Positions 3,856 through 40,883 of a stretch of 64,000 nt of DNA are shown here, one piece after another; the first letter of the stretch is position 1; each line of letters begins with the position of its first letter. The notes beneath the pieces are model-generated. The model saw only the letters and a program-made list of their open reading frames with translations. It ran no database searches and was not told where the DNA came from. This DNA is from an uncultured virus (IMG/VR IMGVR_UViG_3300037453_000161) (lineage: Duplodnaviria; Heunggongvirae; Uroviricota; Caudoviricetes): the IMG/VR virus record IMGVR_UViG_3300037453_000161; one strand, written 5' to 3'. Both the position numbers and the translations under genes were made by a program.

Positions 3856-5259
3856 TTAGGATTCAGTAATTTTAGCAATTTTCTTGCGTACACCATTTTC
3901 GTCAGCGGCGATAGTGAACTGAAGTTCAACAGTCGTCTCGTCAGAACGAGAGATGTTGTTGTTCAAAGTCGTGACGAAGGCATTTTCGTAGTAGTGATAC
4001 TCGATAGTGCCATCTTTCTTGCGAAGAGGAGCAAGAATGTTGACGTTGAAGTCACGGAACTCGTTAGTGACTTCGTAAACTTCAGCAGTAGCCTCTTTAC
4101 GATAGACAATGTTAAGTTCCTGACCAATCCAGTCTTTGCCAACGAGGACAAGACCACGAGTGAAGTCACCCTTGAAGTTTGAGGTGAGAACCTGGAACTT
4201 GTCAGAGTCAGTGACACTCATTACTGGGATTGGGCTGTTGACACGAGTGAGGGAGTGAGCGTTGTTAGCACAACCAGGGGTTTGTACATAAACAAAGCCA
4301 CAGTCTTCAATAGCGTCAGAAAGTTGGATTACACCGTAGCCCTTGAGTTCTTCAGCAAGGTCTTCGTCGATGTAAGCGAAGTAATCTTCAGCGGCAAGAA
4401 CTTCACGAGTTACAATCTTCATAATGCCGAAGGTTTCGTCATCAGATTTGTAAAGAGTTGGGTTCAAGAAGCGAAGGTTCTCGGTGTATTTGTTGGTGGT
4501 GATAGTAGCAGTCATAGTACCGCTCTGTGGGTCGTATTCAGAAGTAGAACAAGCACCTTCGATAACGTCGAATGACTGGCTGTCACCCCAAGTGTCGATA
4601 CAAGAGAGAAGGATGGTGTTGTTGAGTTCGAGGTCTTCGATGCTCTCGTAGAAAGCGATTGAAGAGATACCTGCGAGGTCTCCAGCCTTCAAGTTAGTAC
4701 CGTCAACGGTGAAGCGGAGTTTGACACCGATTTGGTCGATGTTCCAACCGTTGCCAGTAGTGGTCTGTTGTGCGGCAGTTAAGTCGAACTTTGCTAGGTA
4801 GAAGCCTTCTGCGGTAGCGTGAACTTTGGTCGTAACGCTATCGTAGTTGTCCCAAGCAGTTTCGGTGTATTCTGCGATGTCCATAGCAATAGTATGGTCA
4901 CCAGCAGGAAGCCAGAAGTAAGCAACGACAGTACCAGCGACATACTGGAGAGCGTCCATATACTTGTAGAAGTCACCGAAGACTACACTTACGCCATCTT
5001 CTTTAACTTCACCTTGCATAGAACCAGTGTTATAGCATTTGTTCTTTGAACAGCCGATAATGTCATCAGGAACGTTAGCAGCGTTGTAATATGGTGAGTT
5101 GAGGTTTACAAGGTTGTCCTTGTTGTCAACGTTACGGGTGTCTAACTTCGCACAAGATGCGAGGTCATCAAGAACGGAAATCGCAATGATGTCTTCATTT
5201 TTGAGTTTTCCGATTTGGTCGGCTTTGATAACAAAGCCTTTTGAGTCACATTTAGCCAT
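3856..5259 (-). CDS. Probable major tail (tube) protein
   Basis: 467 aa, acidic, beta-rich; C-terminus YYENAFVTTLNNNISRSDETTVELQFTI resembles tail-tube proteins; structural context. Confidence 0.55.
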   Translation of the reverse strand: MAKCDSKGFVIKADQIGKLKNEDIIAISVLDDLASCAKLDTRNVDNKDNLVNLNSPYYNAANVPDDIIGCSKNKCYNTGSMQGEVKEDGVSVVFGDFYKYMDALQYVAGTVVAYFWLPAGDHTIAMDIAEYTETAWDNYDSVTTKVHATAEGFYLAKFDLTAAQQTTTGNGWNIDQIGVKLRFTVDGTNLKAGDLAGISSIAFYESIEDLELNNTILLSCIDTWGDSQSFDVIEGACSTSEYDPQSGTMTATITTNKYTENLRFLNPTLYKSDDETFGIMKIVTREVLAAEDYFAYIDEDLAEELKGYGVIQLSDAIEDCGFVYVQTPGCANNAHSLTRVNSPIPVMSVTDSDKFQVLTSNFKGDFTRGLVLVGKDWIGQELNIVYRKEATAEVYEVTNEFRDFNVNILAPLRKKDGTIEYHYYENAFVTTLNNNISRSDETTVELQFTIAADENGVRKKIAKITES

Positions 5260-7583: not shown

Positions 7584-7656
7584 TTGACATTATGTTTCGG
7601 GTATGCTATAATAGGGGTAACGAGAAACACATAAGACACTCGTAGAAAGGGCTTTT
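7584..7656 (+). promoter_or_regulatory. Early-type promoter plus shared leader (only full + strand copy)
   Basis: TTGACA 7584, 17 bp, TATAAT 7607; AAACACATAAGACAC 7625-7639; SD GAAAGG. Confidence 0.9.
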
Positions 7657-7989
7657 ATGCCAACCATTAACAATAAAGATGTGATGCGTGGAACGAAAAT
7701 CACTTGGGAGGAACTCGAAGAGTACCTCTCCAACAACCACGACGGCAAAGGCGTTATCGTCTTTAAGCAAGGCAAGTGGTTCAAAAAGGAGTTCACCGAA
7801 ATTGAACGCTCATACGAGGTTCACGGAAACTGCAAGTGGTTCGATAGCACGAAGTTGGGTAAATCCATCTTCGGTTACTGCCTAGACAACGACCCACAGG
7901 AGCAGGGCGTACGTCTCGACCACTATATGTTCTACCACGACAACCCAGAAGACAACTGGCAAGTTGACTACTGCTACATTGTAGAGTAG
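7657..7989 (+). CDS. Hypothetical protein in a stand-alone cassette
   Basis: 110 aa with own promoter, SD and downstream terminator; SIFGYCLD..GVRLD motif. Confidence 0.8.
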   Translation: MPTINNKDVMRGTKITWEELEEYLSNNHDGKGVIVFKQGKWFKKEFTEIERSYEVHGNCKWFDSTKLGKSIFGYCLDNDPQEQGVRLDHYMFYHDNPEDNWQVDYCYIVE

Positions 7990-12382: not shown

Positions 12383-12462
12383 AGTTCCTCCTTTGAGTAT
12401 TAGTAGTCATAACTTAACAATAACACAAAAACGCAGATGTTTTTTTAAGGTAGTAAACAACG

Positions 12463-12692
12463 AAAAGACCCCCGAGTGTGAGCATAGGAGGTCTTTTCGC
12501 TAATTGCGGCTACTGACCAATTCTAAATAAGAATGATGTTAAAGAATTAGCATCGGAAACACATAAGACAACTCACAATAAGAACTTATGAAAGGATTTA
12601 TTGCAAGAAAGAGTTACCACTGGAAGGTAATAACTCATAATCCTGGTCAGTAGTATTATTTGTCGAGGTACAATCCTAGGATTAGAATCACT
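12463..12692 (-). ncRNA. Putative structured small RNA (~230 nt) antisense to the shared early leader
   Basis: Minus-strand TTGACA(12725-12720)-17-TACAAT promoter; 10-bp closing stem 12510-12519/12644-12653; terminator 12463-12499; no credible minus-strand ORF. Confidence 0.65.
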
Positions 12693-13010: not shown

Positions 13011-13943
13011 AGTTTTATTCCTTTCCAGTGGTTATTGTAATTACATTGTATCACAGATGATTCTAAATGTCAAGCCTTTTTCTGGAGAAAGTGTGCCATA
13101 TTTTTTTTCGGGGTTTTAGACGGACGAAAGGCGAATTAGTTTTGGGTCAAGCATAAGTAGGTTGTAGGAGGTCAGTGGGGAGAGAACGCCGTAATCCGCT
13201 CTCTCCGTGCGGATTCCCGCCGATTAGTTCCACGATTCCGCCCGCCTGTCAATTCGTCAATTCGCCACGCTTCGCCCCTGTTTTTGTCTTTGTTATGTCG
13301 TAAAATGTATATTGTGCGACACTTCCCGCCCCTGTTATGGCTTCGGGCTTCACGGATTCCGAACGCTTCGGGCGGTTTTTGTTCGGTTTTTGATTCGGGC
13401 GTTTTATGTCATAATATGCGACGATTTGCGACGATTTGCGGGGATTCCGTCGCCTTTTTGCCATTTTTTGCGGATTTCGCAAGGGCGGGCGGGCTTCGGA
13501 TTCCCGAACGGGCGGGCGGTTCGGCGGGCTTATAATATAACGGCGGATTTTTTGCCTTTTTCACCCCCCGCCCCTGTCTTATCATAACGAGTATTAAAAA
13601 CACAACCGCCGACGACTTCGGCGGGGATTCGCCACGCTATAACACGCCGTGTGGCTTCATATAACGCCATTTGCGGGGCTTCTAGGGCTTCGGGCGTATC
13701 TTTTCCCTATTTCAAACTTAACACGCCTTAAAACGCCTTAAAATGGCTTAAAAATTAACAGGGCTTAAACTTTCGGGGCTTCCCGTCAATCTTCCCCCGA
13801 TTCTTCCCGCTTCAATCTTCACGGCTTCGGGATTCTTTCGGATTCAATCAACAGACAAAAAAACACGGGCGGGGCTTTCTTCTTTCCCTTTCCCGTGTCT
13901 TTCTTCGGTCTTTCTTTTTTGTGGTCTTTTTTTGTGGCTTCGT

Positions 13944-14658: not shown

Positions 14659-15211
14659 TTTGTGATTCCCTTTCGCCTTTTCGGCTTACTTTGTTATATT
14701 GTGGCGGGATTCGCCCCCGCTTTTTTCGCTTCCGCCTTGATTCTTTATTATTTGCGGGCGTTGGGGGCTTTTCCCTTGCGTTGGTCTTATGTGTTCCAAC
14801 TGTCTCTATTGTATCACGGCGGGCTTTTTTTGTCAATACACCGCCAACAGGGGCGAGCGTGATTTTCTTTTGTATTTTTTGCGGATTTTGTGGCGGATTC
14901 GGGCGGATTCGCCACGCTTCACGGATTCCCGCCAATCGTCGCCAATCCGTGCGGGATTCGTGCGGATTCAACACAAAAACACCCGCCACGATTCAACACG
15001 GGCGGGCGGTTCGGTTCGGATTCGTGCGGGGCTTCGTGATTCCGCCATAATATCGCAAGCGGGCGGGCGTTCGGGATTCGCAAGCATAAGACACAACACG
15101 GCGGGCGGGATTCCCGCCAATCGTTCCCGATTCGTTCCGCTTGCGGTATTATAGCACAATCACGGCGGGCGGGATTCGTTCGGATTCAATCCCGCCACGC
15201 TTCGCCAATCT

Positions 15212-15719: not shown

Positions 15720-15886
15720 TTTTTCCCTTTTCCGAAAGTGTCTTATGCGTTTCTTTCTGTCTCTATTATAGCACGGCGGATTCGCTTTGTCAATACTATT
15801 TTTGAAAGTTTTTGAAAGTTTTTGAAAGTTTTTCAATTTGAAAGTTTTTCGGATTCGGGCGGGCGGATTCCCGCCCGAAAGTTTTT

Positions 15887-16432: not shown

Positions 16433-16595
16433 ATATTCCCTTTCAGAAAGTGTCTTATGTGTTGCTTTCTGTCTCTATTGTATCACAACAGAAAGTTTTT
16501 GTCAATACTTTTTTCAAAGTTTTTTCATAGACAGGGATTCGGCGGGATTCGGGATTCCCGCCCGTGCGGTCATATACACGGGCGGATTCGGGATT

Positions 16596-17234: not shown

Positions 17235-17312
17235 TTTATTATACCTTTCAGAAAGTGTCTTATGCGTTTCTTTCTGTCTCTATTATAGCACGCCGAAAGT
17301 TTTTTGTCAATA

Positions 17313-17899: not shown

Positions 17900-18173
17900 T
17901 TTTTGCCTTTCAGAAAGTGTCTTATGTGTTGCTTTCTGTCTCTATTGTATCATACCGAAAGTTTTTTGTCAATACTATTTTCAAAGTTTTTTCAAAATTG
18001 AATCGGTGTCTCTATAAACTTATCTTCACAGAATCGGTGATTTTCCCCCGTTGCTATCTGTATATTTTTTTCCCGTTCGTCCATATATCGCATAACCATT
18101 ATAAAGTGCGTTATATCACCAATCCGCTCTTCAAAGTTTTTGCCGATTTTTGCCCACCTGCTTCGTCTCATAG

Positions 18174-18765: not shown

Positions 18766-18891
18766 TATTATTCCTTTTCCGAAAGTGTCTTATGTGTTGC
18801 TTTCTACCCCTATTCTATCACAACCAAAAGTTTTTGTCAATACTATTTTGAAAGTTTTTTCAAAAAAGTGGCGGATTCGCTCCGCCACCCC

Positions 18892-19647: not shown

Positions 19648-19737
19648 TATTTTCCTTTCAAGTAGTGTCTTATGTGTTTCTACTTACCCCCATTGTAGCA
19701 CAACCGAAAGTTTTTGTCAATACTTTTTTGAAAGTTT

Positions 19738-20605: not shown

Positions 20606-20683
20606 AATTTTCCTTTCAAGTAGTGTCTTATGTGTTTCTACTTACCCCCATTGTAGCACAACCAAAAGTTTTTGTCAATACTT

Positions 20684-21605: not shown

Positions 21606-21730
21606 ATTATATTTCCTTTCAGATAGTGTCTTATGTGTTTGCTATCTTACCCCTATTGTAGCACACCGAAAGTATTTTGTCAATACTATTTTCACAAAAA
21701 AATTATGGCGTTTCCGCCATAATTAGAATC

Positions 21731-22647: not shown

Positions 22648-23008
22648 ATTGCTTCCTCACTTTCCTACGCTTACTTTTTAACCCACGAACTTTCGCTCCC
22701 GCTAGACTCGCTTCACGGGCGTAGCCCGCTTGAAACCCAATCGGTTTTCCGTCCGCACGAAGAGTTGCTACCCCGTGTTTGCCCCTTTCAGACATCAACT
22801 CACGATAGTTATCTTCTCCAAGTTTTGCTTTCAAAGTTTCTTGTGCCTTTTTGCCACCTTGACGGCGATTTTCAGCAATCTCTTCTGGGTCTTTTTTCTG
22901 ATAATAGTTTTTCACTTCTATTTCGCCAGAGGCACGACGAAGTTTCGTCTTATTCCAATAGTATTGGCGTTGGTATTCTCTCTGTTTTTCTTTATCTCTA
23001 TATGCCAT
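22637..23008 (-). CDS. KGG-motif-like basic protein
   Basis: RQGGKKA..LG.DNYRELMSERGKHG..GF...AREASLAGAK. Confidence 0.65.
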   Translation of the reverse strand: MAYRDKEKQREYQRQYYWNKTKLRRASGEIEVKNYYQKKDPEEIAENRRQGGKKAQETLKAKLGEDNYRELMSERGKHGVATLRADGKPIGFQAGYAREASLAGAKVRGLKSKRRKVRKQYEA

Positions 23009-23057
23009 TATGTGTTCTCCTTTCTGCTCTCTAATATATCACAGCCGAAAGTTTTTG

Positions 23058-24638: not shown

Positions 24639-25199
24639 TTATTTACCTTTCTTTTCGTTAATTTCTTCTAGTGGTGTGGCTTGGTAGCCGATTGCTACAA
24701 GTAAGTAGCCATAGATGTTTTTGACAGCACGAGCAATAGCCCTTGTCTCTGACAAGCCCATAGTCGCAAAATCGTCTTTGTCCTTCAAGAACTCTTCACT
24801 CTTATCTGCAAGCATAGTAGAACGAGAGATTTCAGTTCCGTTCACATTGTGGAGAATACAAGTAGTTTTCGCAAAATAAACCTTACCGTCTTTCTCTTCA
24901 CGATAGCCGTCTTCTGTTAAGAAAGTAGGAATAAGCCCTTTCTGTTGTGCAATATACTGATACACTTCTGACTTAACATACTTTCTGTTCCCCTCTTGAA
25001 CGCCAAGTTCATTTTTCTCAATGAAGTTTTTAAGAGCGGTCATTTCTTGAATAGCCTTCATTTGCTCTTCGGTGAGTTTAATCTTCCCTGTTTGTGCAGG
25101 TTTTTCTACCGACTTTTGGGCAGGAGTTACAGGTTTTTCCTTGTTGACAGCCGTTTCAGCCTTATTGAGACCTTTCATAGCGTCGCTTGCGAGAGTCAT
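24639..25199 (-). CDS. Putative ssDNA-annealing recombinase
   Basis: SETRAIARA...GYQATPLEE motif; clusters with exonuclease and Gp157-like gene. Confidence 0.55.
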   Translation of the reverse strand: MTLASDAMKGLNKAETAVNKEKPVTPAQKSVEKPAQTGKIKLTEEQMKAIQEMTALKNFIEKNELGVQEGNRKYVKSEVYQYIAQQKGLIPTFLTEDGYREEKDGKVYFAKTTCILHNVNGTEISRSTMLADKSEEFLKDKDDFATMGLSETRAIARAVKNIYGYLLVAIGYQATPLEEINEKKGK

Positions 25200-25612
25200 T
25201 ACTTACCGCCTTTCTTAACTTTCCAGTTTAGACGGTAATAAGAAGCGTCAGAAAATCCTTCAGGGAGTTTACCCATAACTTTTAGATACTCTTGGGCTTT
25301 CTTTTCGTTGGCAACGACCATTTCTTCCTTAAAATCGTCAGGAACTTTGTCGATGTCAGCGACTTTGACTTTTGCCACAGCAGACACACTGACAGAGAGG
25401 TCGCCAACTTCGTGCAAGTCGAAGTCTTGGTCGGCAATAAGCCTAGCCTTGACAGCGTCCTTGAGACGTTGAACCTCCTGTTTTGCGTCCTCAATGGCTT
25501 TAATTTGTTTGAATACGTCAGGGTATTGCGTCCGTAGAGCAACAAGTTGTTCCTCTACGGACGCTTCCTTGACGGCAATTTCAGACATTTGCTTGTCTAA
25601 ATTGTCTGCCAT
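25199..25612 (-). CDS. Siphovirus Gp157-like coiled-coil protein
   Basis: Coiled coil then VKVADIDKVPDDF; SD AGGAG/AGGA before MADNLD. Confidence 0.5.
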   Translation of the reverse strand: MADNLDKQMSEIAVKEASVEEQLVALRTQYPDVFKQIKAIEDAKQEVQRLKDAVKARLIADQDFDLHEVGDLSVSVSAVAKVKVADIDKVPDDFKEEMVVANEKKAQEYLKVMGKLPEGFSDASYYRLNWKVKKGGK

Positions 25613-25659
25613 ATTTTGTCCTATCTCCTGCTTTGGCGTGGCGACCATTCTATTTACCA

Positions 25660-25848
25660 CTTTAAGTGCAGGGGCGAACCCATCACCACACATAAGACAC
25701 CTTGCAAAGTGAGGAAATGCACCGAACAAGATAAAGATGTGATGGATTCAACTCTGAACTTAAAGGTTCGTGGGTTGATTGAGTGTCCTCGCAGTTTTGG
25801 TTGACCGTCTCTCAACGGGCGGTCAACCGACACACTCAATTAACCCTA
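25660..25848 (-). ncRNA. Structured 5' leader/sRNA displaying the antisense of the shared early leader
   Basis: Promoter TTGACATTTAGA...TAACAT at 25855-25883; two long stem-loops; second loop contains GTGTCTTATGTGT (25688-25700). Confidence 0.6.
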
Positions 25849-25871
25849 CTTATATGTTAGCACAGATGAAT

Positions 25872-26078
25872 CTAAATGTCAAGGTTTTTTTCATCGTTTT
25901 TGTGCTTTTTATTCTTTGACCCCAATGCTCTACCAGAACCAGGAGTGGTGAACTCACCAAGCACTAAATCATCAACAACACCAGTGATACCTCTGGTGTG
26001 GTATTTCGGATTTCTGCTCAACTCACGAAGTTTCTCGTAGGCTGGGACACTAATTCTTACTTGCTTTTCTTTTCTCAT
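25872..26078 (-). CDS. Small DNA-binding protein, ribbon-helix-helix-like
   Basis: KQVRISVPAYEKLRELS pattern. Confidence 0.5.
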   Translation of the reverse strand: MRKEKQVRISVPAYEKLRELSRNPKYHTRGITGVVDDLVLGEFTTPGSGRALGSKNKKHKNDEKNLDI

Positions 26079-26087
26079 AATAACATT

Positions 26088-26456
26088 TTACCACTTTCTG
26101 AACGGTTGCGGTTTTTCCCAAGTTCCGCTCCCCTTCTTCTTATTACACCAAACGTGTGCCAGTTGGCAATTCTCTAATGTCGTCTGCCCCCCTTTTGACA
26201 ACGGAATAATGTGGTCAATCGTGCAATGCTTCATATTTTTAATCGGCTTGCCACACAAACCACATACCGCACCTTTGGAGTCAATCAGTTGGTTCTTGAT
26301 AGCCTTCTGATATTTCCATTCTTTGAAGTCCGATTTACTGCCTCTGAACCCGTTTCTTGACTTGAAATGTTCTCTCTGTTGGCTACGTTTCGGAATCTTC
26401 TCAAAATTGTCTCTGTCTCCTTTCATTCTGCGACGATGGTTGTAATACTTTCTCAT
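26088..26456 (-). CDS. HNH endonuclease
   Basis: CGLCG...TIDHIIPLSKGG...NCQLAHVWCNKKK. Confidence 0.92.
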   Translation of the reverse strand: MRKYYNHRRRMKGDRDNFEKIPKRSQQREHFKSRNGFRGSKSDFKEWKYQKAIKNQLIDSKGAVCGLCGKPIKNMKHCTIDHIIPLSKGGQTTLENCQLAHVWCNKKKGSGTWEKPQPFRKW

Positions 26457-27726: not shown

Positions 27727-28593
27727 CTAATCTCCGAAATTATCTTTATAATACTTTCCCATAGTTGGTAGATATTTTGCATATGCCTCGGCAAACTTGC
27801 CACCAGCATCACCGTCATATAATTTAACAGCCCCTTTGGTAAACGCAGAAATGCCTTTATACATACACTTACGTTCAGTTTCATAATCATCAAAGCCTTC
27901 TTCGTCTTCCTTTTTATGGTATGGGTATTTACCGTAGTGCATTACCCCAAGGTTAGCGGCGGCGTAAACCCCAAGGAACTCTTCCTCGGTTAATTCTAAT
28001 TTAACTTTTTTCATTTTCAATCCTTTCTCCCGTTTTCGGGTCATAATGTGGTCTATTTTCTTTATAAAACTTTACATACGTTGGGTGGAACTCTGTCATC
28101 ACAAGGTCAAGTGTGTCGTAGTCAATCATATAATGAACGTTGTTCAACACCATCTTGCCACTATACTTGACGATAGATAATTGCGAGTTGTTCCAGTAAT
28201 CTACACCCATAATCACTGGTTGCTTGTATTTGTTAAATAACTCTTTGCTATAAAGTTCTGCTTCCTCAATGGTCTTGCAGTCTCTAACTTTCATAACATT
28301 CTCCTTACTTCTTGCTCTTCTTGTGCCCTAGCCGCAGTGGTTTCTTCCGATGGCGTAATCACACCCTCTTCAACCAACTTTGCACGAGTGCGACGGATTG
28401 TTTCAGGGCTAGACACAGACTTTAGATGTTCATATAACTCTGGGTCGTGCCAACCCTCTGTCCACCAAACAGTTGCGATAAGTCTCTTATCGTCATTGGC
28501 TAGGTCAGGATTCTTTTCAACAAGAGCGATTATCTTGTCTCTCATTGCTTGGCTATTTACCTTCATTACAATCCTTTCCATAACGGGCTTCAT
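27727..28593 (-). CDS. Three hypothetical genes (28291..28593, 28001..28294, 27727..28014)
   Basis: Overlapping start/stop junctions. Confidence 0.65.
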
Positions 28594-28807
28594 AGTATTT
28601 GCGTCCGTTCTTACCTATTCCCGCTTGTCGGTAGACGGACAGTTGTATGTTCTTGGTTATCTTCCAAGGGACTGTAACTTTGCCCTTCTTCTTTGGGTGG
28701 ACAAAGTGTAGGTGGTCGCCTTTCTGTTTCAAGAACACCCAACCATCTTTGTAAAGTTCTGCAATCAGTTCCTTACGTCCCCCCTCCGTATGACCTTTGC
28801 TACTCAT
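28553..28807 (-). CDS. hicA: HicA-family toxin (mRNA interferase fold)
   Basis: ELIAELYKDGW...QKGDHLHFVHP.KKGKVTVP...SVYRQAG. Confidence 0.88.
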   Translation of the reverse strand: MSSKGHTEGGRKELIAELYKDGWVFLKQKGDHLHFVHPKKKGKVTVPWKITKNIQLSVYRQAGIGKNGRKYYEARYGKDCNEGK

Positions 28808-28874
28808 CTCCCCCTTCCTCCTTTCTTATGTGCTTCTATCACACTATCTATGTTAGCACACATCATTCTAAATG

Positions 28875-29399
28875 TCAAGGTTTAGACTTAATATCGTCGT
28901 ATCTATCTGTTCCGAAACATAAAATAATTGCTTCGCACAGCCAACCACGAATCACAGGCTCGACCTTTTCACAGTTAGAAGGGTCATCGTCAATGAAGTA
29001 GACAGTAGCATACTCTGCGTTCATATCGTTACGAATTAACTCCGCCTTTACTTCTGGAGATTTACGATAATCACCGTCCTTACGCATCAAAATACGATAC
29101 TTAATAGGGTGTTCAGTCTTCAAATGTTCCGTGAGCCACATACCAGTAAGCGTCCTAGAACGCTCTGGTCTGCCAGTGACGAAGACTAGGTCTAGGTCAG
29201 AACTGTCCCAGCCAAGTTGGGTAGTGCAGATTCCTTTGACCAACATATCAAGAAATGTAATCCCACCTTCAATCGGCTCATCGTCAGCCATTTCACAGCC
29301 ATAGAATCCATCATAATTCTTTTCGTCAAGATAGTGCATACGGTGTCCAATATCTGCAAGGACACCGTCAATATCACAGTAGATTCTAGTCGTTTTCAT
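28875..29399 (-). CDS. HAD-family polynucleotide 3'-phosphatase-like protein
   Basis: DIDGVLAD, VTGRPE, LMRKDGDYR...K, FIDD. Confidence 0.85.
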   Translation of the reverse strand: MKTTRIYCDIDGVLADIGHRMHYLDEKNYDGFYGCEMADDEPIEGGITFLDMLVKGICTTQLGWDSSDLDLVFVTGRPERSRTLTGMWLTEHLKTEHPIKYRILMRKDGDYRKSPEVKAELIRNDMNAEYATVYFIDDDPSNCEKVEPVIRGWLCEAIILCFGTDRYDDIKSKP

Positions 29400-35839: not shown

Positions 35840-36604
35840 ATGGCTTTTTTCAATGTAATAATACCAACATATAACAGCGAGAAAACACTGCGTAGAGCGG
35901 TGGATTCAGTACAAATGCAAACCTTCAAAGACTACACCTTAACCCTTGTCGATGACTGCTCAACTGATGGGACAAGAAAGATTATGAGCGAAATCAAGGA
36001 AGCAGACATTATTGTCCTCGGCGAGAAAAGGTTTAACGGTGGTTCTAGGAATGTTGGCGTAGCAGAATCCCCAGACGGTGAGTACCTTTTGTTCCTTGAT
36101 GCCGACGATGAGTTCGTCGACCCACAGTTCTTTGAGAAACTCCACAAGTTTATTGAAGAGAAGAACCGTCCAGATATGATTAGGTTGAGGTACGTCCGTG
36201 TTTACGACCACTCTACGAAGAACCACCAAACTGAAATCTACTACGACGAAAAGACGCTTGAAGATGTGACCTGGTCACCGAGAGTTGCACCGTGGACAAA
36301 GTGTATTAAGAAGAGTCTGTTCCAGAAGTTCCCAGAGAATACCTTAATGGAAGATGTCTGTCAACACATCTGTCAACTTGATGTGACTGACACGGTTGAG
36401 TGGTTTCCTGATGTTGTTGTGAAGTGGCACTTGCACGACGCTTCCACCTCGCATAATAACTCCCCGAAGTGGCAGAGTTCTGCGTGGCGGTTCGTGGCTG
36501 ACTTGATGGACTTGGATTTGAAAAGAGATTATACCAAATGGCGAAGAGATAAAAAGGTTAAAGGTGCGATTAGAGGACTAATGAATGGCGAAATCAAACA
36601 ATAA
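35840..36604 (+). CDS. Glycosyltransferase family 2
   Basis: IIPTYN, VDDCSTD, SRNVG, FLDADD, ED. Confidence 0.93.
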   Translation: MAFFNVIIPTYNSEKTLRRAVDSVQMQTFKDYTLTLVDDCSTDGTRKIMSEIKEADIIVLGEKRFNGGSRNVGVAESPDGEYLLFLDADDEFVDPQFFEKLHKFIEEKNRPDMIRLRYVRVYDHSTKNHQTEIYYDEKTLEDVTWSPRVAPWTKCIKKSLFQKFPENTLMEDVCQHICQLDVTDTVEWFPDVVVKWHLHDASTSHNNSPKWQSSAWRFVADLMDLDLKRDYTKWRRDKKVKGAIRGLMNGEIKQ

Positions 36605-37313
36605 AATCAACCTAAAAGACATTGACGTTGTCTACCCAGTAAAGGCTACACCAGATGAGAACGTCGAGTTAAGGTACTCGCTCCGCAGTCTGGAAAATAT
36701 GCCACACCGTAACGTCCACATTTTTAGTGACTACATTCCTTGGTTGTCCAAGAAGGTGAAGTGGCATCCATCTTCAGACCGTCCTGGAAAACCACGTTTT
36801 GCTAATGTAAATACAACGTTATTACGGGCGTGCAAAGACCCAAACATTTCCGACCCATTCGTTTTTATGAACGACGATTTCTTTGTTATGCAGAAGATTA
36901 AGGAGTTGCCTTACTATTGTAACGGCACTCTACAACAGCATTGGGACTACTTGCACAGGACATACGCTGGTAGTAAGTATATGCGTGACCTTCTTGAAAC
37001 CCAGAGCGTATTAAAAGAGATGGGCTACGGCACTATGGACTTTGAGGTTCACTGTCCAATCATCTTTTACAAAGAACAACTTATCAAGATTCTTGAGGCT
37101 TACCCATACACTGCTTGTCGTAGGACTATCTACGCAAATATGATGGAAGTCCCTTATGAACAGGTGGTTGACTTCAAGATTTACGGGTTCGGAGACCAGT
37201 TTGACCATAACCGTCCGTTTGTCTCTACTGCTGATGCTAACTTCAGAAGGCAGAGTGGCGTGCGTAGTATGATTCGTTCCAAGTTCACTCACCAATCACC
37301 ATACGAAAAATAG
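36585..37313 (+). CDS. Stealth-like sugar-phosphate transferase
   Basis: IDVVY, ELRYSLRSL, FVFMNDDFF, H.P motifs. Confidence 0.7.
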   Translation: MAKSNNKINLKDIDVVYPVKATPDENVELRYSLRSLENMPHRNVHIFSDYIPWLSKKVKWHPSSDRPGKPRFANVNTTLLRACKDPNISDPFVFMNDDFFVMQKIKELPYYCNGTLQQHWDYLHRTYAGSKYMRDLLETQSVLKEMGYGTMDFEVHCPIIFYKEQLIKILEAYPYTACRRTIYANMMEVPYEQVVDFKIYGFGDQFDHNRPFVSTADANFRRQSGVRSMIRSKFTHQSPYEK

Positions 37314-39495: not shown

Positions 39496-39529
39496 CTTGA
39501 CATTTAGATTGGCTAACGTATAATGAGAA

Positions 39530-39663
39530 TAGGTCTGTGCCACCTGCTAGAAGAGCACCGTAGACAGAGTCACGATAACTCTGACGTTGAGGACAAGTTG
39601 CTCTGTCCTTTGTAACGTGAATAAAACCACCAGTGGCTAGCGAGCAAACGAGGTGGTTTTTTA
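39530..39663 (+). ncRNA. Putative multi-hairpin small RNA
   Basis: TTGACA...TATAAT at 39497-39524; three hairpins; terminator AAAACCACC...GGTGGTTTTTT. Confidence 0.55.
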
Positions 39664-39729
39664 ATGGTAAAAAATAAAAGTCAATTTCCTTATACAATAG
39701 TAGTATGACTACTAATTTAAGGAGGAACT

Positions 39730-40730: not shown

Positions 40731-40804
40731 GGTCGTATGTCGGAGCGGTTACGAGACTGTCTGCAAAACAGTTTACCCCAGTTCGACTCTGGGTGCGACC
40801 TCCA
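40731..40804 (+). tRNA. tRNA-Cys(GCA)
   Basis: GGTCGTA/TGCGACC-T-CCA; ACTGT-CT-GCA-AA-ACAGT; TTCGA T-loop. Confidence 0.92.
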
Positions 40805-40808
40805 TATT

Positions 40809-40883
40809 GGTCTGTTGGTATAATGGTTATTACACGTCCCTGTCACGGACGAAAAACGAGTTCAATTCTCGTACAGACCGCCA
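40809..40883 (+). tRNA. tRNA-Asp(GTC)
   Basis: GGTCTGT/ACAGACC-G-CCA; CGTCC-CT-GTC-AC-GGACG; TTCAA T-loop. Confidence 0.92.

What the first reader, a model, noticed from the sequence alone, without database searches (positions are those of the whole stretch)
25660..25883. Second anti-leader RNA built into the 5' leader of the recombination operon
Seen: after promoter TTGACATTTAGA...TAACAT there are ~230 nt before the likely ATG (25612). Stem-loop 1 is GGGTTAATTGAGTGT/ACACTCAATCAACCC with inner GGTTGACCG/CGGTCAACC. Stem-loop 2 is TTTAAGT..GAATCCATCAC / GTGATGGGTTC..ACTTAAA (G-U pair favours the minus strand). Its loop carries GTGTCTTATGTGT, a 13-nt exact antisense of the early leader, plus a TTTCCTCA anti-SD-like tract. 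The scaffold is unrelated to the 12.5 kb RNA yet displays the same seed, which argues for function rather than duplication. Inference: it shuts off early mRNAs, or senses them and couples recombination-gene expression to them. Caveat: one pair in stem-loop 1 favours the + strand.
Basis: partly seen in the sequence, partly recalled or inferred. Interest (0 to 1): 0.8.

Follow-up and report, generated by a model that had tools for sequence, protein, structure and literature searches.

The report
Phage RNA against early-gene leader loops
An uncultured cattle-gut phage starts ten of its early messages with a small hairpin that shows the same ten-letter loop, and carries a conserved folded RNA that exposes the exact mirror of that loop, so one RNA probably turns those genes down together, though no RNA or repression has been measured.

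Summary
The element is real. A conserved promoter (25882-25854, minus strand) drives a ~235-nt leader with two long stem-loops. Two diverged relatives rewrite the stems with compensating changes. The exposed parts stay fixed: the 16-nt seed, a small anti-Shine-Dalgarno loop, the SL1 loop and bulge, and a 40-nt tail. The N-terminal ORF extension is not conserved. New here: all 10 tagged leaders are themselves hairpins with covarying stems. Their loop core (ACACAUAAGA; one A>G change in 2 of 10) is the complement of the RNA's most open 10 bases. The tag is therefore an RNA element, not a plain DNA operator. Best reading (0.6): a trans-acting antisense RNA that kisses the leader loops and blocks early translation. 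It works like P1 C4 or P4 CI RNA but is not a family member (no Rfam match) and addresses a whole gene class. The 'sensor' reading got no support from folding. Weaker extra targets: a 14-nt second match to gene 7657, and a HicA toxin leader (no HicB found). No transcript data exist, and tag-seed co-change across phages could not be tested. This scan has noted similar RNAs in other phages.

The parts
25854..25882 (-). sigma70-type promoter with TG extension; one of a 'TTGACATTTAGA' class also at 28878, 13073, 32174 and 39497
   Evidence: 26/29 identical in L007
25772..25846 (-). SL1: 15-bp lower helix, 3' bulge, 9-bp upper helix, terminal loop; role unexplained
   Evidence: L007 has 13/13 and 11/11 pairs with different letters; 25834/25784 compensatory in run X2
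25811..25816 (-). invariant SL1 terminal-loop core GUUGAG
   Evidence: 6/6 identical in L007; no change listed
25787..25795 (-). invariant SL1 bulge ACUGCGAGG
   Evidence: 9/9 identical in L007
25661..25764 (-). SL2 scaffold: basal 7-bp helix, purine/CCCCUG internal loop, 11-bp middle helix that is rewritten in each of three phages
25731..25744 (-). 14-nt arm complementary to codons about 6-10 of gene 7657 (7673-7686), collinear with the seed match; not conserved in the two diverged homologs
   Evidence: 2 of 5000 shuffles reach 14 nt
25712..25719 (-). anti-Shine-Dalgarno loop (UUUCCU core) on a 4-bp inner hairpin
   Evidence: open in the ensemble; core kept in L007 and X2; hairpin kept through one-sided changes at 25723 and 25710
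25688..25703 (-). seed AAGGUGUCUUAUGUGU; its open core 25697-25688 is the complement of the leader loop core
   Evidence: 16/16 identical in L007; no change in X2; accessibility
25624..25663 (-). invariant 40-nt tail running into the ribosome site of the first gene; role unexplained
   Evidence: 40/40 identical in L007; no change listed
25199..25612 (-). first gene of the operon, 137 aa, weakly Gp157-like; true start is ATG 25612
25872..26078 (-). 68-aa gene upstream, possibly ribbon-helix-helix DNA-binding; syntenic in L007 and L008
   Evidence: atlas lead only (RHH_1 on 11% of one cluster)
21620..21647 (-). target leader hairpin of gene 21605
20618..20643 (-). target leader hairpin (ATG 17 nt after the tag)
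19660..19685 (-). target leader hairpin of gene 19647
18780..18805 (-). target leader hairpin of gene 18765
17912..17937 (-). target leader hairpin of gene 17899
17250..17275 (-). target leader hairpin of gene 17234 (A>G variant, G.U with the seed)
16445..16470 (-). target leader hairpin of gene 16432
15733..15758 (-). target leader hairpin (A>G variant), ATG 18 nt after the tag
14780..14800 (-). target leader hairpin with a shorter loop and a different stem; no ATG within 45 nt
7620..7686 (+). leader hairpin and first codons of the lone plus-strand gene 7657-7989 (110 aa, no family or fold match); best predicted target
28824..28832 (-). 9-nt partial tag fused to the SD of the hicA gene (28807-28553); weak candidate target
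   Evidence: kept in loose ends of three runs
23008..23015 (-). 8-nt partial tag in the SD-to-start spacer behind an eleventh early-type promoter (23061)
12455..12690 (-). second, unrelated structured RNA with promoter and terminator-like hairpin; shows the same seed (12570-12556) in a multiloop
   Evidence: z -5.68; not hit by model R1
15082..15094 (-). degenerate third reverse copy (2 mismatches) behind a lone extended -10 box; doubtful

Best explanation
A trans-acting antisense RNA, carried in the 5' leader of a middle-type operon, that down-regulates a class of the phage's own early mRNAs. Shown from sequence: each tagged mRNA starts with a 5-7 bp hairpin whose loop carries ACACAUAAGA(CA), 17-20 nt before the start codon in 9 of 10 cases, and SL2 holds the complement open in a bulge. 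Inferred: (1) the bulge kisses the leader loop (about -10 to -12 kcal/mol net). (2) Pairing extends through AAGGUG, unzipping the leader stem and the RNA's inner helix. (3) The UUUCCU loop can then reach the AGGA of the SD, so the 30S subunit is blocked; the duplex may also be cut or trigger termination. (4) Both promoter classes look like host sigma70 promoters, so a stable RNA that builds up would act as a delay timer: an early pulse, then shut-off. The same RNA would silence a superinfecting relative with the same tag. (5) The RNA is probably cut out of the mRNA, but this is not shown. The 12.5-kb RNA is a second scaffold with the same seed.
For: RNA side: stems rewritten with pairing kept. 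L007 has 8 of 53 consensus pairs changed on both sides and all six of its helices fully paired. In the X2 variant the middle helix is again different and, read by hand from the difference table, forms 10 Watson-Crick pairs, with matched changes at 25761/25664 and 25834/25784. Seed, anti-SD loop and tail are invariant. Target side: 10 of 10 tagged leaders have a stem of at least 5 Watson-Crick pairs round the core, against 2.5% of 20000 random sites and 0 of 2 reverse copies. On an alignment of 10 distinct leaders (9 from the window, plus L001), 4 of 6 pairs show two-sided changes; covariation 0.456 vs 0.170 shuffled (0/500) and at most 0.156 when slid. Specificity: accessibility-corrected pairing is -10.4 to -12.0 kcal/mol for all 10 leaders; 68 other gene starts average -3.6 (sd 2.2), best -9.8. 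The only loop-core variant (A>G, two leaders) gives G.U with the seed. Strand: the inner helices need G.U pairs available only on the minus strand; three one-sided changes in X2 and one in L007 keep pairing on that strand; the promoter is conserved. Precedent: C4 loops pair upstream of and over a ribosome site (PMC5320573, passages).
Against: No transcript, processing or repression data. Co-change of seed and tag across phages was not tested: no fetched contig carried both, and the seed did not vary. The leader copies are related by duplication, so their covariation is only about four or five events. A nested co-folding model that cannot form kissing contacts gave weak or no net binding: 0 to -14.4 kcal/mol for the window RNA (0.0 for 2 of 10 leaders) and 0 to -3.7 for L007, while one control reached -5.1. 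The zipping step past the first kiss is therefore not established. The margin over the best control is small (-10.4 vs -9.8). The plus strand folds with the better z-score in both phages (-5.17 vs -3.11; -6.53 vs -5.98). SL1's invariant loop and bulge and the 40-nt tail are not explained. Pairing does not give the sign of the effect. L008 (40% protein identity) has an unrelated hairpin at this place.
Confidence: 0.6

Rival explanations
1. The leader loop is first a binding site for a host or phage protein (antitermination or translation enhancer), and the antisense RNA works by masking that site rather than the ribosome site.
For: An invariant loop on a covarying stem right at the 5' end. The same hairpin and loop occur once, behind a promoter-like -10 box, in an unrelated phage contig with no protein similarity to the window (L001). 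The tag lies at the edge of the ribosome footprint.
Against: No candidate protein was identified. The conserved anti-SD loop points to the ribosome site. L001 was the only such case in two viral scans (6 and 56 matches).
Confidence: 0.14
2. A cis-acting sensor: early mRNA binding refolds the leader and switches translation or transcription of the operon behind it.
For: The RNA sits in a 5' leader with no terminator after SL2. The invariant tail runs into the ribosome site, and CCCCUGC could pair with GCAGG there. Full opening of SL2 by a gene-7657-type duplex raises the ribosome-site opening cost by 1.1 (window) and 3.4 (L007) kcal/mol.
Against: Seed or seed-plus-loop binding changes nothing in either phage. 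The arm needed for full opening is not conserved.
Confidence: 0.1
3. A plus-strand decoy RNA that shows the tag in sense and soaks up a protein that binds it.
For: Better fold z-scores on the plus strand; one SL1 pair favours plus; a 10/12 plus-strand promoter match at 25308-25335.
Against: The plus-strand copy lacks the leader stem. The inner helices lose pairs on plus. Four one-sided changes favour minus. Promoter-like sites in the region number 14 against 12 by chance, and that site reads more poorly in L007 by my inspection.
Confidence: 0.05
4. The 13-mer is a DNA operator or stoperator for a phage repressor, such as the 68-aa protein upstream; the reverse copies are further sites.
For: A 13-bp asymmetric site just downstream of early promoters matches the L5 layout (PMC9283540, passages). 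A small DNA-binding-like gene is adjacent (lead only).
Against: A DNA site does not need covarying flanks on both tag and mirror. L5 sites lose function when reversed, yet the reversed copy here is invariant. No repressor or integrase family hit among 84 plus 19 ORFs scanned.
Confidence: 0.05
5. The RNA is the guide and scaffold of an RNA-guided protein, for example the HNH protein two genes upstream, aimed at the early promoters or mRNAs.
For: The HNH (26088-26456) has an Arg-rich start and hits the Cas9d and IscB models (E 8e-11, 4e-6). SL1 and the tail have unexplained invariant letters.
Against: The hits cover the HNH domain only: 41 bits against a cut-off of 375 and 26 against 175, in a 122-aa protein. 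No TnpB, Cas12 or IS110 family hit in the ORFs scanned. L008 shows no HNH match at this place. An unrelated second scaffold shows the same seed.
Confidence: 0.04

Closest known systems
C4 antisense RNA of phages P1/P7 (Rfam RF01695; PMC5320573, passages)
   Same: Structured antisense RNA inside a longer transcript, with two single-stranded parts: one pairs upstream for specificity and one over the ribosome site.
   Different: No Rfam match. Different fold. C4 serves lysogenic immunity through a single operon (the ant target is recalled); here there are ten separate transcripts and no sign of lysogeny genes.
CI RNA of satellite phage P4 (PMC4825925, passage)
   Same: Antisense RNA generated from an untranslated leader. 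From recall, its recognition letters lie in a bulge and a loop of a double stem-loop, as in SL2.
   Different: CI pairs with seqA and seqC on its own transcript and causes termination; here the complements lie on other transcripts.
Start-associated sequences (SAS) of Cluster K mycobacteriophages (PMC3203893, passages)
   Same: A 13-bp asymmetric tag before many non-structural genes, with one unexplained reverse copy. In Adephagia that copy lies in the loop of a long stem; the loop is invariant in 4 of 4 phages aligned.
   Different: SAS contains the SD and lies 3-7 bp from the start; here the tag lies upstream of the SD, in its own hairpin loop. Sequences are unrelated. SAS function is untested in that paper.
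L5-type operators and stoperators (PMC9283540, passages)
   Same: 13-bp asymmetric repeats oriented with transcription near early promoters.
   Different: Those are DNA sites for a protein; here both tag and mirror sit in covarying RNA stems.
Trans-acting phage sRNAs PreS, VpdS, sar, OOP, PAK_P3 sRNA1/2 (10.1101/2024.10.31.621285 passages; PMC12197685 section 2; PMC4933390 passages)
   Same: Phage-encoded base-pairing RNAs; PreS uses an 11-nt seed on many targets.
   Different: In the text I read they act on host mRNAs, on a single phage gene, or have no known target. None is described as addressing a tag built into a class of the phage's own leaders.

Membership tests
C4 antisense RNA (RF01695) | match to the covariance model | tested here: not met
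   no hit at the gathering score in the window or at E<=10 in 25550-25950, L007 or L008
C4 antisense RNA (RF01695) | two single-stranded recognition segments, one upstream of and one over the target's ribosome site | tested here: met
   open seed bulge and open anti-SD loop, both conserved; pairing is predicted only
C4 antisense RNA (RF01695) | release from a precursor by RNase P | not testable with these tools
   needs RNA data
C4 antisense RNA (RF01695) | role in lysogenic immunity | tested here: inconclusive
   no integrase or repressor hit in 84 plus 19 ORFs; 1563 nt of the 65563-nt contig lie outside the window
P4 CI RNA | complementary targets on its own transcript, up- and downstream | tested here: not met
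   the longest complements lie on other transcripts
P4 CI RNA | causes premature termination | not testable with these tools
   needs transcript ends
Cluster K SAS | 13-bp asymmetric repeat before non-structural genes, with a rare reverse copy | tested here: met
   10 sense copies and 2-3 reverse copies
Cluster K SAS | contains the SD and lies 3-7 bp from the start codon | tested here: not met
   the tag ends 17-20 nt before ATG, upstream of the SD
L5 operator/stoperator | asymmetric 13-mer oriented with transcription throughout | tested here: not met
   reverse copies at 25688 and 12559, the former invariant
L5 operator/stoperator | cognate HTH repressor | tested here: inconclusive
   no family hit; only an RHH lead
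omega-RNA or guide RNA of IscB/Cas9-type nucleases | adjacent nuclease with RuvC and HNH that reaches the family score | tested here: not met
   122-aa HNH-only protein far below the cut-offs
Type I toxin-antitoxin (RNA antitoxin) | antitoxin RNA encoded next to or overlapping the toxin, with long complementarity (recalled definition) | tested here: not met
   hicA lies 3 kb away with a 9-nt match, net -7.9 kcal/mol through the anti-SD loop
Type II HicAB | adjacent HicB antitoxin | tested here: not met
   no HicB hit in the Pfam scans; a recalled HicB-like pattern found nothing in 711 six-frame segments; a divergent antitoxin could be missed
T-box leader | match to the T-box model | tested here: not met
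   no hit at E<=10

The most novel reading that the evidence does not exclude
The phage runs its early-to-later switch, and perhaps self-immunity, on RNA alone. A hairpin-loop address is built into every early leader and read by two unrelated RNAs with one seed. The freely rewritten middle helix of this RNA serves as a second, re-programmable arm for a chosen target (gene 7657 here), and the same seed restrains an orphan HicA toxin in place of a protein antitoxin.
Probability: 0.17. Interest if true: 0.87.

Novelty: new variant of a known kind. Interest (0 to 1): 0.63.

Why it matters
Early-gene shut-off in model phages is put down to proteins (established knowledge; also stated for T4 and SPO1 middle and late control in PMC4933390). 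The reviews I read list few phage RNAs with phage targets, each with a single target. A single RNA that addresses ten transcripts through a built-in hairpin tag would be a class-wide RNA switch. This case is useful because both partners show structural covariation, which separates an RNA tag from a DNA operator, and because it gives exact bases to mutate. The same layout in cultured Cluster K mycobacteriophages makes the function of their start-associated sequences, left open in PMC3203893, directly testable. Tempering this: earlier notes of this scan describe similar anti-leader RNAs in many other phages and already make the Cluster K link, so this is a well-supported example of a recurring kind, not a lone discovery.

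Tried and rejected
Own genome: not held.

Search for relatives carrying both RNA and early region. Four protein scans of viral contigs with single proteins or alignments of the first gene, gene 7657 and the 209-aa gene found none, nor did one with the helicase. The genome-contig scan gave 3 weak Rhodococcus loci, treated as spurious. The metagenome scan gave 3 loci: L007 and L008 used, L009 (36% over 55 aa) dropped. Three pattern scans of viral contigs gave 6, 56 and 6 matches. Only L001/L029 (one contig) had the leader hairpin, and model R1 found nothing in 13 of these loci. tblastn against annotated phages: no match for the first gene or the 379-aa head protein; 22-23% hits to Lactococcus P087-like structural proteins for ORF 3856.

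Sequencing runs: no RNA holder listed. Reads were laid only on 25400-26200, 4 of 21 runs, so variation at the target leaders was not seen.

Rfam at both thresholds: nothing relevant. The T-box idea (UGGU in the tail, T-loop-like letters in SL1) was dropped for lack of a model hit.

Gene 7657: no family hit, no usable atlas hit, model pLDDT 79, no fold match at E<=0.001 in PDB or BFVD. Three of its 8 homologs have E where the window has D in the region of the 14-nt match, so no co-change could be read.

hicA as a target is weakened by an unrelated phage contig with two ordinary ribosome sites reading ACACATAAG plus SD (L035/L061), and by a chance expectation of 0.015 for 71 starts.

Host: not determined. 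A Patescibacteria/Saccharibacteria host is my recollection-based guess from the KGG-repeat protein; cluster look-ups gave no informative names.

Literature: ten searches showed no listing describing this RNA or a class-wide anti-leader phage RNA. The library lacks most subscription papers, I read passages or one section of seven papers only, and I opened no supplements.

Full report
Setting. The window is 64,000 nt of a 65,563-nt tailed-phage contig, with terminase, portal, tape measure, primase, helicase and two tRNAs. It and close relatives are held by gut and faecal metagenomes labelled as animal, several of them bovine; 9 of 21 listed runs hold 0.2 or more of the words, one being a possible source. 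The host is unknown. No integrase or repressor family was hit among 84 plus 19 ORFs. 'Early' here means small unknown genes behind repeated near-consensus promoters; timing is inferred, not measured.

Observation. The 13-mer has 15 matches at up to 2 mismatches against 1.69 expected. Ten are sense copies 13-16 nt after a -10 box; nine of these are followed by an SD and an ATG 17-20 nt later. Three are reversed relative to local transcription (25688, 12559, 15082). Two I treat as chance (38155, 61653).

Anatomy. SL2 has a basal helix, an internal loop, an 11-bp middle helix, a one-sided bulge, a 6-bp inner helix and a 4-bp hairpin. The seed runs from the inner helix into the bulge. Only 25697-25688 is freely open (0.7 kcal/mol); the anti-SD loop is fully open (0.03).

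Conservation of the RNA. L007 (82% identity in the downstream protein) keeps the promoter, the upstream 68-aa gene and the fold. Identity to the window is 16/16 in the seed, 42/45 in inner helices plus loop, 40/40 in the tail, 6/6 and 9/9 in the SL1 loop and bulge, but 6/15, 6/17 and 4/13 in stem arms, and every L007 helix is fully paired (the SL1 lower arm is poorly aligned by MAFFT, so 6/15 is approximate). Contigs of run X2 give a third version with 27 changes and 7 gap positions over 25624-25833. Read by hand, none touches the seed, the UUUCCU core or the tail; the middle helix is rewritten into 10 Watson-Crick pairs; two further pairs change on both sides, and three change on one side in a way that pairs on the minus strand. 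Three listed differences of that call were not shown. L008 (40% identity) has a different long hairpin at this place, so the family is narrow. The reading frame upstream of ATG 25612 is not conserved.

The targets are RNA hairpins. Folding the leaders showed that each displays the tag in a loop. All 10 have a stem of at least 5 Watson-Crick pairs round the 10-nt core; 2.5% of random sites do; the two reverse copies and the hicA site do not. The stems differ between copies while pairing is kept: 4 of 6 pairs with two-sided changes, covariation 0.456 against 0.170 shuffled and at most 0.156 slid (two rows are off register, the alignment includes L001, and the copies are kin). The part common to all loops is the complement of the RNA's open 10 bases. 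This is the strongest argument against a DNA operator and against the RNA being a decayed inverted leader.

Specificity. With opening costs on both sides, all 10 leaders bind at -10.4 to -12.0 kcal/mol, through the seed; 68 other starts average -3.6, best -9.8. L007's RNA and the 12.5-kb RNA bind the same leaders more strongly (-12.5 to -18.3). Against this, nested co-folding, which cannot model a kiss, gave little net binding for several leaders and almost none for L007. The first contact is therefore well supported and the later zipping is not. A two-sequence covariance model hits neither the 12.5-kb RNA nor L008, in line with an unrelated scaffold.

Extra targets. The longest match of the RNA to the rest of the window is 14 nt to the first codons of gene 7657, a tagged gene, at nearly the same spacing from the seed (30 vs 33 nt); 2 of 5000 shuffles reach this. 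Three close relatives change one letter of it to a G.U-compatible one, but both diverged homologs replace it, so it is either a phage-specific second arm or an accident. The hicA leader carries 9 of the 10 core letters fused to its SD and ranks sixth of 79 starts in plain duplex energy. Loose ends in three runs keep these letters, and no HicB was found. But such ribosome sites occur in an unrelated phage, and net binding is only -7.9. An eleventh early-type promoter has 8 core letters between SD and start.

Sensor test. Forcing the seed, or seed plus loop, to be unpaired left the downstream ribosome site unchanged in both phages; only full opening of SL2 raised its opening cost. The invariant tail and SL1 letters remain unexplained and keep this rival, and a protein partner, alive.

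Comparison. It works like C4 and CI RNA (leader-borne, two exposed segments) but fails their membership tests. The layout of tag plus reverse copy is that of Cluster K SAS. I checked Adephagia: 16 forward sites and 1 reverse in the stretch fetched. The reverse one lies in a hairpin loop (region z -5.25), similar DNA is in 137 phage records, and the loop is invariant in 4 of 4 aligned, though only 1 of the 6 two-sided changes lies in that hairpin. I did this before reading earlier notes that make the same link. Earlier notes also list similar RNAs in other phages; they are unchecked leads, lower the novelty within this scan and are not used as support. Papers were seen as passages (PMC3203893, PMC9283540, PMC5320573, PMC4825925, PMC4933390, 10.1101/2024.10.31.621285) or as outline plus one section (PMC12197685). 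Ten searches showed no description of this system; supplements were not opened.

Verdict. A real, uncatalogued structured RNA under selection to expose the complement of a hairpin-loop tag on ten phage leaders. Antisense pairing with the leaders is likely (about 0.85, summing the best reading and the first two rivals); translational shut-off in trans is the most likely outcome (0.6). New variant of a known kind; interest 0.63.

Noticed in passing
window 12625-12616 and 13023-13032 (minus strand): The 12.5-kb RNA also carries a 10-nt complement to the leader of the gene just upstream (13010-12729, 93 aa, hydrophobic); it is mostly buried in a hairpin (net -6.0 kcal/mol).
   Followed up: partly
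window 28553-28807: HicA toxin gene under its own promoter with no HicB found; 8 cluster members.
   Followed up: partly
L001:9990-10036: An unrelated phage contig has the same leader hairpin and loop once, behind a promoter-like -10 box and before a 73-aa ORF; 83% identity over 47 nt.
   Followed up: partly
L008:1120-1300: A distant relative has a different long stem-loop (about -50 kcal/mol) between the same two genes; no early region on the contig to test its loops.
   Followed up: partly
L013:33655-33715 (Adephagia JF704105, between genes 92 and 93): The single reverse SAS lies in the loop of a long hairpin next to a terminator-like stem; conserved in related phages.
   Followed up: partly
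window 39497-39700: A promoter of the same class followed by about 200 non-coding nt with several inverted repeats before ORF 39730; a possible further structured RNA.
   Followed up: no
window 13100-13940 and 14660-15210: Long GC-rich, purine-skewed non-coding tracts with repeated short words beside the early cluster; possibly genome end or origin.
   Followed up: no
window 22653-22663: An 11-nt complement of the anti-SD hairpin region just before the start of gene 22647 in the downstream operon; net -6.7 kcal/mol, inside coding sequence, may be chance.
   Followed up: partly
L007:334-359: L007 has an extra 10-bp hairpin at the 5' end of the RNA that the window lacks.
   Followed up: no
window 35840-37313: Glycosyltransferase family 2 and Stealth-like genes side by side on the plus strand.
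   Followed up: no
window 40731-40880: Two tRNA genes; an 8-nt complement of the invariant SL1 bulge lies about 90 nt upstream and is the best control hit (-9.8), probably chance.
   Followed up: no
window 3856-5259: Structural protein 22-23% identical to Lactococcus P087-like phage proteins, the only link found to cultured phages.
   Followed up: no
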